Assembly (NCBI RefSeq): GCF_039654945.1
Contig: NW_027361727.1
Span: forward strand, 3,906,001-3,970,000
Reading direction: 5' to 3'
DNA from: Dendrobates tinctorius
Lineage: Eukaryota
DNA length: 64,000 nucleotides
The notes beneath the pieces are model-generated. The model was not told the DNA's origin, did not search any database, and saw nothing but the letters and a program-made list of their open reading frames with translations. Shown here piece by piece: positions 9,154 through 9,632 of this stretch. Position numbers and translations under genes: made by a program. Each line of letters opens with the position of its first letter. Within the stretch, counting starts at the first letter, position 1.

Positions 9154-9632
9154 GTGAACCTGCTGTTCAAGCATTGGCCAGGAAATTCAACCCAAAGGGA
9201 CCTTACCCGCTTCATGAAATGGCTGCACTGCATCCAGCTCCAGTGCCAGAGGATCATCTTGTACAAGATTCTGAAGGTGCTCCTTGAAATTTATCCAGGC
9301 CCTGGACCGGAAAACAGCCATTCAGCTCTTCAAACTGGTGCACAAATGCTGACCTGAGACCAAGCTGGAAGAAAGGAACAGCTGCTGGCCCATGCTGAGC
9401 AAAAAGAAACTGGTAAAGAAGGCATCCCAGCAAAGAGACCCCCAGTGATCAGAGCAGGTGTTAACACAGTGACCGCCTTGGTGGAGAGCAAGTAAGCTCA
9501 GCTGGACGTCATCTCTGATGAAGAGGATCCCAGCAAACGGCTTGTTTTCCTGCCGACTCTGTGCCAGAAGATGGGAGTCCCCTACTGCAATGTGAAGAGC
9601 AAGGCCAGACCGGGCCGCCTCGTCCATAGGAA
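9154..9632 (+). pseudogene. RPL7A: Processed RPL7A (60S ribosomal protein L7a/eL8) internal fragment inside ERV RT
   Basis: Degenerate translation [95 protein letters not shown] matches RPL7A; contiguous, with no introns. Confidence 0.93.

What the first reader, a model, noticed from the sequence alone, without database searches (positions are those of the whole stretch)
9154..9632. Spliced RPL7A mRNA fragment captured inside a retroviral RT gene, with no poly(A) tail or TSD
Seen: about 480 nt of RPL7A coding sequence (roughly VNPLF to LVHR), sense to the provirus and intronless. It lies between RT ...QHPLSITQSRTVSDQLKV and LFSIKRK...FRMVHDLRAVN, where a short RT segment (the usual SPxNTP region) is missing. 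There is no 3'UTR, poly(A) or flanking duplication of its own. Inference: this looks like replacement by template switching onto a co-packaged abundant mRNA (retroviral transduction) or break repair, not an L1 retrocopy. It shows the same small-deletion decay as the viral genes, so it may have travelled with the element.
Basis: partly seen in the sequence, partly recalled or inferred. Interest (0 to 1): 0.8.

Follow-up and report, generated by a model that had tools for sequence, protein, structure and literature searches.

The report
Ribosomal mRNA passenger in retrovirus family
A spliced 500-base piece of the host's ribosomal protein L7a mRNA sits inside the reverse transcriptase gene of an endogenous retrovirus and has been copied with it to several hundred places in this (likely frog) genome; it was likely picked up once by a reverse-transcriptase template switch and has since drifted as a non-coding passenger.

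Summary
Window 9154-9632 is spliced RPL7A (four exon joins) from this genome's own gene, sense, with no tail or duplication of its own. It is not private to this locus: a gag marker outside the insert hits 449 places, and 26 of the first 30 carry the insert, none an unbroken RT. Ten uninterrupted relatives show that only 6 nt were replaced, with a 7-8 nt microhomology at the 3' junction (chance about 1e-3). All copies share both junctions, so there was one capture. LTR pairs differ by 0.6-6.8% while inserts differ from the host by 9-28%, so the insert travelled and mutated with a long-lived, pol-dead, env-less family. It drifts neutrally (omega about 1, shared stop, shared frameshifts). Template switching in the particle is the best mechanism (0.75); break repair in a provirus cannot be excluded. 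This is a known kind of event (LTR-mediated retroposition), unusual in scale and persistence.

The parts
4474..4978 (+). 5' LTR (TG...CA), preceded by 4-bp target duplication TTGG
   Evidence: 24 mismatches in 498 columns (4.8%) to the 3' LTR
4981..4998 (+). Primer-binding-site-like motif after the 5' LTR (tRNA-Lys type; assignment recalled, not tested)
   Evidence: sequence
7149..8527 (+). gag capsid-nucleocapsid remnant with zinc knuckle; split by a private ~447-nt MITE-like insertion at about 7770-8216
   Evidence: (zf-CCHC E 7e-7)
8528..9152 (+). Protease and RT N-terminus (broken), ending in a stop codon formed at the junction (TAA 9151-9153)
   Evidence: uninterrupted relative has RVP and RVT_1, nearest solved RT is MLV/XMRV type E 4e-43 against foamy 3e-21
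9154..9632 (+). Spliced RPL7A fragment, codons 32-201 (end of exon 2 to part of exon 6), non-coding
9625..9632 (+). CATAGGAA: microhomology shared by host mRNA and RT at the 3' junction (8 nt with 3 of 10 uninterrupted copies, 7 nt with 5; 2 differ inside it)
   Evidence: chance 2.5e-4 to 8e-4
9637..13750 (.). Later nested 4.1-kb element with ~620-nt inverted arms (97% alike) and a 15-bp duplication (9622-9636 / 13751-13765); private to this copy; no Pfam hit
13766..16500 (+). Rest of pol (RT, RNase H, integrase remnant), broken; begins with the family-wide 17+1 nt loss; no room for env before the 3' LTR
   Evidence: RNase_H E 3e-16; rve E 0.016, below cutoff
16727..16736 (+). Polypurine tract
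   Evidence: sequence
16737..17243 (+). 3' LTR, followed by TTGG

Best explanation
A 509-nt spliced piece of the host RPL7A mRNA replaced 6 nt of the RT gene of an env-less class I endogenous retrovirus once, likely by two reverse-transcriptase template switches onto a co-packaged mRNA, and the pol-dead chimera then kept retrotransposing, likely on a helper's enzymes, carrying the piece as a neutral passenger to hundreds of sites. Inferred steps: minus-strand synthesis reached the 7-8 nt word shared by RT and mRNA (3' junction), jumped to the mRNA, copied 509 nt, and returned 6 nt further on without exact homology, one base unassigned. Shown steps: single shared junction pair, spliced host-lineage source, independent integrations with their own 4-bp duplications, serial subfamilies, neutral decay.
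For: Spliced, sense, internal, no tail or TSD. Microhomology of 7-8 nt at the junction that minus-strand synthesis meets first; null P 8e-4 / 2.5e-4. Source is this lineage's gene: host-specific Leu112 in 60 of 66 copies and Ser162 in 57 of 61. Every examined locus with the fragment is proviral: 29 of 29; 53 of 54 exact junction hits are treated as family members, 50 of them fetched and one of those, L117, had no proviral match, in line with the control count of 1. RPL7A sequence beyond the insert occurs only in the host gene and one very old retrocopy (3 matches, 5 of 5 candidates scored), so cDNA capture of this mRNA at ordinary genomic sites is rare here. Capture in a particle happens in an element that is being replicated, whereas a break would have to hit one of a few dozen proviruses in 6.4 Gb (inference). 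On the family's stem gag changes are mostly silent (8 S, 4 N), as expected if replication did not pause. Ladder-shaped tree rooted on the host; insert-bearing and uninterrupted copies separate in the upstream flank tree (SH-aLRT 99). Distinct flanks in 23 of 23 flank reads (motif-picked, a few may not be true LTR edges) and own TSDs at the window, L107, L123, L206, L208, L216, L225. Insert omega 1.22 for shared and 0.98 for private changes, 1.06 early-to-late; stop at codon 107 in 62 of 65 copies; five shared frameshifts in the youngest group.
Against: Only 6 nt were replaced, which is also what repair of a single DNA break leaves. The 5' junction has no exact microhomology; the nearby offset 6-mer is not significant (P 0.05-0.10), and a search for a longer 5' junction form found 0. 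Ono 2015 describes the same footprint (spliced partial mRNA, no poly(A), one microhomology) from break repair. In the downstream flank tree one uninterrupted copy is not grouped with the other seven (2 changes, weak support). The helper was not identified and trans-mobilisation is inferred from the dead pol only. Stem CpG-type changes (4 of 29 substitutions) are no different from the per-copy background of 5-13% and do not discriminate.
Confidence: 0.75

Rival explanations
1. A double-strand break in the RT gene of a resident provirus was patched with RPL7A cDNA (or primed on the mRNA) through one microhomology, and that provirus then became the master of the family.
For: Near-zero target loss (6 nt), one microhomology plus one unassigned base, no tail or TSD; matches the single-microhomology outcome in Ono 2015 (PMC4516963, passages).
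Against: Needs a rare capture to land in a tiny share of a 6.4-Gb genome and that copy to found the family. No comparable RPL7A fragment outside this ERV was seen among the loci examined. Gag stayed under selection on the stem. Orientation is sense, required by template switching but a coin toss here.
Confidence: 0.17
2. An ordinary L1-type RPL7A retrocopy inserted into the provirus, and a later deletion between the two CATAGGAA words removed its 3' end, tail and second TSD copy.
For: Such a deletion would leave exactly this junction. One old processed RPL7A pseudogene exists in the genome, so the route is not closed.
Against: No copy keeps any RPL7A sequence past codon 201. It needs two events before the first surviving copy and the same low prior of hitting the provirus. 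The old pseudogene is 38-44% alike in protein and is not the source.
Confidence: 0.05
3. The fragment is kept because it does something for the element: an L7Ae RNA-binding domain, or a fragment taken from another host species.
For: It is still present in the youngest copies, and insert-bearing copies outnumber the uninterrupted ones found (about 400 against 10 close and 20 sister copies; searches of unequal sensitivity).
Against: In-frame stop before it and inside it, omega about 1 in both halves, a 37-nt frameshifting loss inside L7Ae in 10 of 15 late copies, 68 of 509 nt lost, substitution rate equal to the flanks. Host-specific residues rule out a foreign donor.
Confidence: 0.03

Closest known systems
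LTR-mediated retroposition in metazoans (Tan et al. 2016, PMC5131818; section 5 and passages read)
   Same: Partial spliced mRNA between discontinuous LTR-element sequence, microsimilarity (median 6 bp) or a few de novo bases at junctions, no poly(A) or TSD, further rounds as a non-autonomous element.
   Different: [quoted passage not shown] Here one capture founded several hundred copies over LTR divergences from about 7% to under 1%, and only 6 nt were replaced. Their supplements were not read.
FAM8A1 capture by a human ERV (Jamain 2001; seen only as cited in PMC5131818)
   Same: Host mRNA piece inside an ERV with microsimilarity at the fusion points.
   Different: Different virus class and host; copy number there not checked by me.
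RT-product-mediated break repair in mouse zygotes (Ono et al. 2015, PMC4516963; passages read)
   Same: Internal spliced mRNA piece, no poly(A), short microhomology at one or both ends.
   Different: Induced breaks at single loci, either orientation, no onward amplification.
Maize Bs1 gene captures and acutely transforming retroviruses (Bs1 as cited in PMC5131818; oncogene transduction recalled)
   Same: Host mRNA sequence carried by a defective LTR element that depends on a helper.
   Different: In the transforming viruses the captured frame is expressed and selected; here it is dead.
Pxyfem retrocopies of PxyMasc in Plutella (PMC9674220; abstract read)
   Same: Multicopy partial cDNAs of a host gene among transposons.
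   Different: Those make piRNAs that silence the parent; no small-RNA evidence exists here.

Membership tests
LTR-mediated retrocopy | Spliced, partial mRNA sequence | tested here: met
   four exon joins, both ends truncated
LTR-mediated retrocopy | Flanked on both sides by one LTR element with both LTRs and an integrase-type TSD | tested here: met
   LTRs and TTGG; same in other copies
LTR-mediated retrocopy | Replaces part of the element's ORF | tested here: met
   6 nt replaced against 10 uninterrupted copies; very small
LTR-mediated retrocopy | Microsimilarity at the switch points | tested here: inconclusive
   met at the 3' junction (7-8 nt, P<1e-3); not met at the 5' junction (one unassigned base; offset 6-mer P 0.05-0.10)
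LTR-mediated retrocopy | Formed inside the particle by RT switching | not testable with these tools
   inferred from priors and orientation
L1-type processed pseudogene | 3' end with poly(A) | tested here: not met
L1-type processed pseudogene | Own target-site duplication | tested here: not met
   target shows a 6-nt loss
Class I (gamma/epsilon-like) ERV | RT closest to MLV-type RT; gag-pro-pol order with integrase last; 4-bp TSD | tested here: met
   no RT tree against named genera was built, so gamma against epsilon is open
Non-autonomous LTR element | Shared pol-killing lesions inherited across independent integrations | tested here: met
   junction stop and about ten shared frameshifts in pro-RT
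Non-autonomous LTR element | Identified helper that mobilises it | not tested
   related lineages with uninterrupted RT exist; no link shown
Functional transduced host gene | Open, selected reading frame | tested here: not met

The most novel reading that the evidence does not exclude
The capture itself made the family succeed. The junction stop turned an autonomous element into a Gag-only parasite (no shared net frameshift in 645 nt of gag against about 15 in 1,890 nt of pro, RT and insert), and carrying 500 nt of an essential, abundant mRNA shielded the early copies from small-RNA silencing, because silencing them would have hit RPL7A. That would be a vertebrate case of camouflage by gene capture.
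Probability: 0.1. Interest if true: 0.8.

Novelty: new member of a known kind. Interest (0 to 1): 0.5.

Why it matters
The mechanism is known, but this case is large and long-lived: one mRNA capture became a fixed feature of an ERV family of at least several hundred copies, present in at least one other species. Because the host gene is an exact outgroup, the insert is a rooted neutral clock for the element: about 9-10% substitution was added between the earliest and latest subfamilies while LTR divergence fell from about 7% to under 1%. It shows that in this genome the ERV, not L1, made nearly all RPL7A retrocopies, and it will mislead RPL7A annotation and read mapping. It also gives a ready test of whether gene capture causes small-RNA conflict in a vertebrate germ line.

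Tried and rejected
Foreign-host donor, prompted by zebrafish-like top hits: rejected, the copies carry this genome's own residues. Purifying selection on the insert: one search gave omega about 0.5 for shared changes, but the dead RT gave 0.6 by the same count; after restricting to changes inside the family and correcting for transitions it is about 1. Frame retention of the L7Ae half: suggested, lost when late copies showed a shared 37-nt deletion there. A 12-nt longer 5' junction with 7-of-9 homology: 0 matches. Selection to break long matches to the host mRNA: 1 of 6 late copies below P 0.05 on one of two measures, flanks alike. A young identical 'burst': these are DNA-level duplications with shared flanks, 98-99% alike over 20 kb, and were reduced to one representative in the counts (13 loci dropped). 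Expression: no RNA holder listed, which says nothing either way. Junction bridging in organisms C and D fell short of the 31-letter rule. The nested element had no Pfam hit in six frames. Earlier findings of this scan: none. Literature: nine searches listed no report of an RPL7A-carrying ERV; term searches in two amphibian ERV papers (10.1101/2024.07.05.601823; PMC12690878) found no host-gene capture passage. Subscription journals and supplements were not seen.

Full report
Observation. Window 9154-9632 translates as ribosomal protein L7a. The host gene lies at G000:C13 near 8.727 Mb on the minus strand. Aligned to its spliced exons, the window stretch covers codons 32-201 and crosses four exon joins without intron sequence; it differs from the host at 16.3% of 479 columns. 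The host protein is 96% identical to a leptodactylid frog's and 90-95% to the other eight vertebrate sequences compared, so the host is likely a frog. Two residues that the host has and the nine reference proteins lack are in the copies (Leu112 in 60 of 66, Ser162 in 57 of 61), so the donor was this lineage's own mRNA.

The provirus. LTRs lie at 4474-4978 and 16737-17243 with a TTGG duplication, a primer site and a purine tract; they differ at 24 of 498 columns. Gag zinc knuckle, protease, RT, RNase H and a weak integrase signal follow in order, with no room for env. An uninterrupted relative's RT is nearest to MLV/XMRV RT (E 4e-43; foamy 3e-21): a class I element. A private 4.1-kb element interrupts this copy at 9637-13750 and duplicated 15 bp that include the 3' junction.

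It is a family trait. A DNA search gave 43 matches (40 of 794 candidates scored); 29 of the 29 other loci fetched are the same provirus. A protein search gave 145 matches (142 of 1571 candidates scored), none extending credibly past codon about 201 except host exons. An exact 20-mer across the 3' junction hit 54 places against 1 for the control; one of those fetched was not proviral. To sample without using the insert I searched a 22-mer in gag about 0.9 kb upstream, which matches 33 of 49 insert-bearing and 0 of 6 uninterrupted copies: 449 places. Of the first 30 (contig order), 21 show the insert within 1.5 kb, 4 more within 10 kb, and one is a locus already known; one more lies 11 kb from a known insert; three are uninformative; none shows an unbroken RT. 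That gives about 400 places, more if the marker misses a third. Some 40 of the places are DNA-level duplicates; the rest examined have distinct flanks, and seven show their own 4-bp duplications. In organism B single contigs bridge the 5' junction (1411-1573 of L009, junction at 1462) and the 3' junction (1822-1999); organisms C and D show only weaker hints.

The junctions. Ten uninterrupted relatives were found by pattern and 20 sister-lineage copies lack the insert too. Against them the insert replaced 6 nt. The 3' junction lies in CATAGGAA, shared with the mRNA over 8 nt in 3 of 10 relatives and 7 nt in 5; random junctions reach 7 nt with P 8e-4 and 8 nt with 2.5e-4. The 5' junction has one unassigned base, which makes a stop in the pol frame in most copies; a shared 6-mer three bases away is not significant (P 0.05-0.10).

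History. Fifty-one inserts (partial, duplicated or interrupted ones left out) differ from the host by 9.1-27.9% and form a ladder rooted on the host. The upstream flank tree splits 56 insert-bearing from 8 uninterrupted copies with support 99; the downstream tree needs two changes, weakly supported. LTR pairs differ by 3.1-6.8% in ten earlier-sampled copies and 0.6-2.1% in seven of eight late ones, the eighth a partial pair at 5%, whose inserts are 19-21% from the host. So most divergence arose while the family replicated. Differences between host and the 12 earliest copies are 14 silent and 8 replacement, the silent excess likely being the host gene's own change since capture.

Function. The insert drifts: omega 0.98 for private and 1.22 for shared changes, 1.06 between early and late groups, a stop at codon 107 in 62 of 65 copies, and five shared frameshifts in the late group, one inside L7Ae. 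An uncorrected count suggested 0.5 but did so for dead RT as well. Early-to-late substitution is 9% in the insert, 8% in gag, 10% in pro and 14% in RT. Near-perfect 21-nt matches to the host mRNA fall from 94-191 per early copy to 6-13 per late copy, no faster than random placement of changes predicts. Pro and RT are neutral with about ten shared frameshifts; gag keeps its frame, a side observation that hints at Gag made in cis.

Mechanism. Template switching in the particle fits the sense orientation, the microhomology at the end reached first by minus-strand synthesis, the abundant donor (established for ribosomal protein mRNAs, recalled) and the fact that the product founded a family. RPL7A 3' sequence occurs only in the host gene and one very old retrocopy, so other capture routes were rare here. 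The tiny replaced stretch and the homology-free 5' junction are equally what break repair leaves (PMC4516963, passages). I put 0.75 on template switching, 0.17 on break repair, 0.05 on a trimmed L1 retrocopy and 0.03 on a selected or foreign insert.

Comparison and verdict. The structure meets the description of LTR-mediated retrocopies in PMC5131818 (section 5 and passages read), including onward spread as non-autonomous elements. Nine literature searches listed no RPL7A-carrying ERV; supplements and closed journals were not seen. It is a new member of a known kind, notable for hundreds of copies, long persistence and a built-in rooted clock. Interest 0.5; the camouflage reading has probability 0.1 and would merit 0.8.

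Noticed in passing
window 9637-13750: 4.1-kb nested element with ~620-nt inverted arms (97% alike), a 15-bp flanking duplication and no Pfam hit; the layout recalls Penelope-like insertions (recalled, untested).
   Followed up: partly
window 7770-8216 and 11838-12226: Two related MITE-like insertions with inverted ends, one in gag and one inside the nested element; the gag one is absent from nearly all other copies.
   Followed up: partly
gag capsid-nucleocapsid of the family (window 7200-8500): No shared net frameshift in 645 nt against about 15 in 1,890 nt of pro, RT and insert, though substitutions are near neutral (omega 0.67-0.88) and one stop column is shared by 11 of 66 earlier-sampled copies; suggests the frame was kept for Gag in cis.
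   Followed up: partly
L079 (G000:C163, about 3.5215 Mb): Mosaic insert: later-type changes in the 5' half but host-like at codons 168-171, where other copies share a cluster of five changes in 12 nt at the exon 5/6 join; either recombination with an early copy or a second switch onto host mRNA.
   Followed up: partly
G000:C17, C248, C273, C370, C464, C106 and others; G000:C129 29.4-29.95 Mb: One old insert-bearing provirus amplified at DNA level to about 30 places inside a larger repeat, and another as about nine tandem units some 60 kb apart.
   Followed up: partly
L228 (G000:C129:37.307 Mb): A very old near full-length processed RPL7A pseudogene, 38-44% protein identity.
   Followed up: partly
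L009:1000-2500 laid with runs X7, X12, X16: Summed contig depth in the thousands to tens of thousands over parts of the insert in organisms C and D hints at larger expansions there; the tool warns that this is no copy number.
   Followed up: no
window 2000-3500, 17800-18900, 19950-21300, 44350-45000, 53200-54900, 56700-60100: Several minisatellite arrays (periods 42, 25, 24/48, 40, 29/30, 86) outside the provirus.
   Followed up: no
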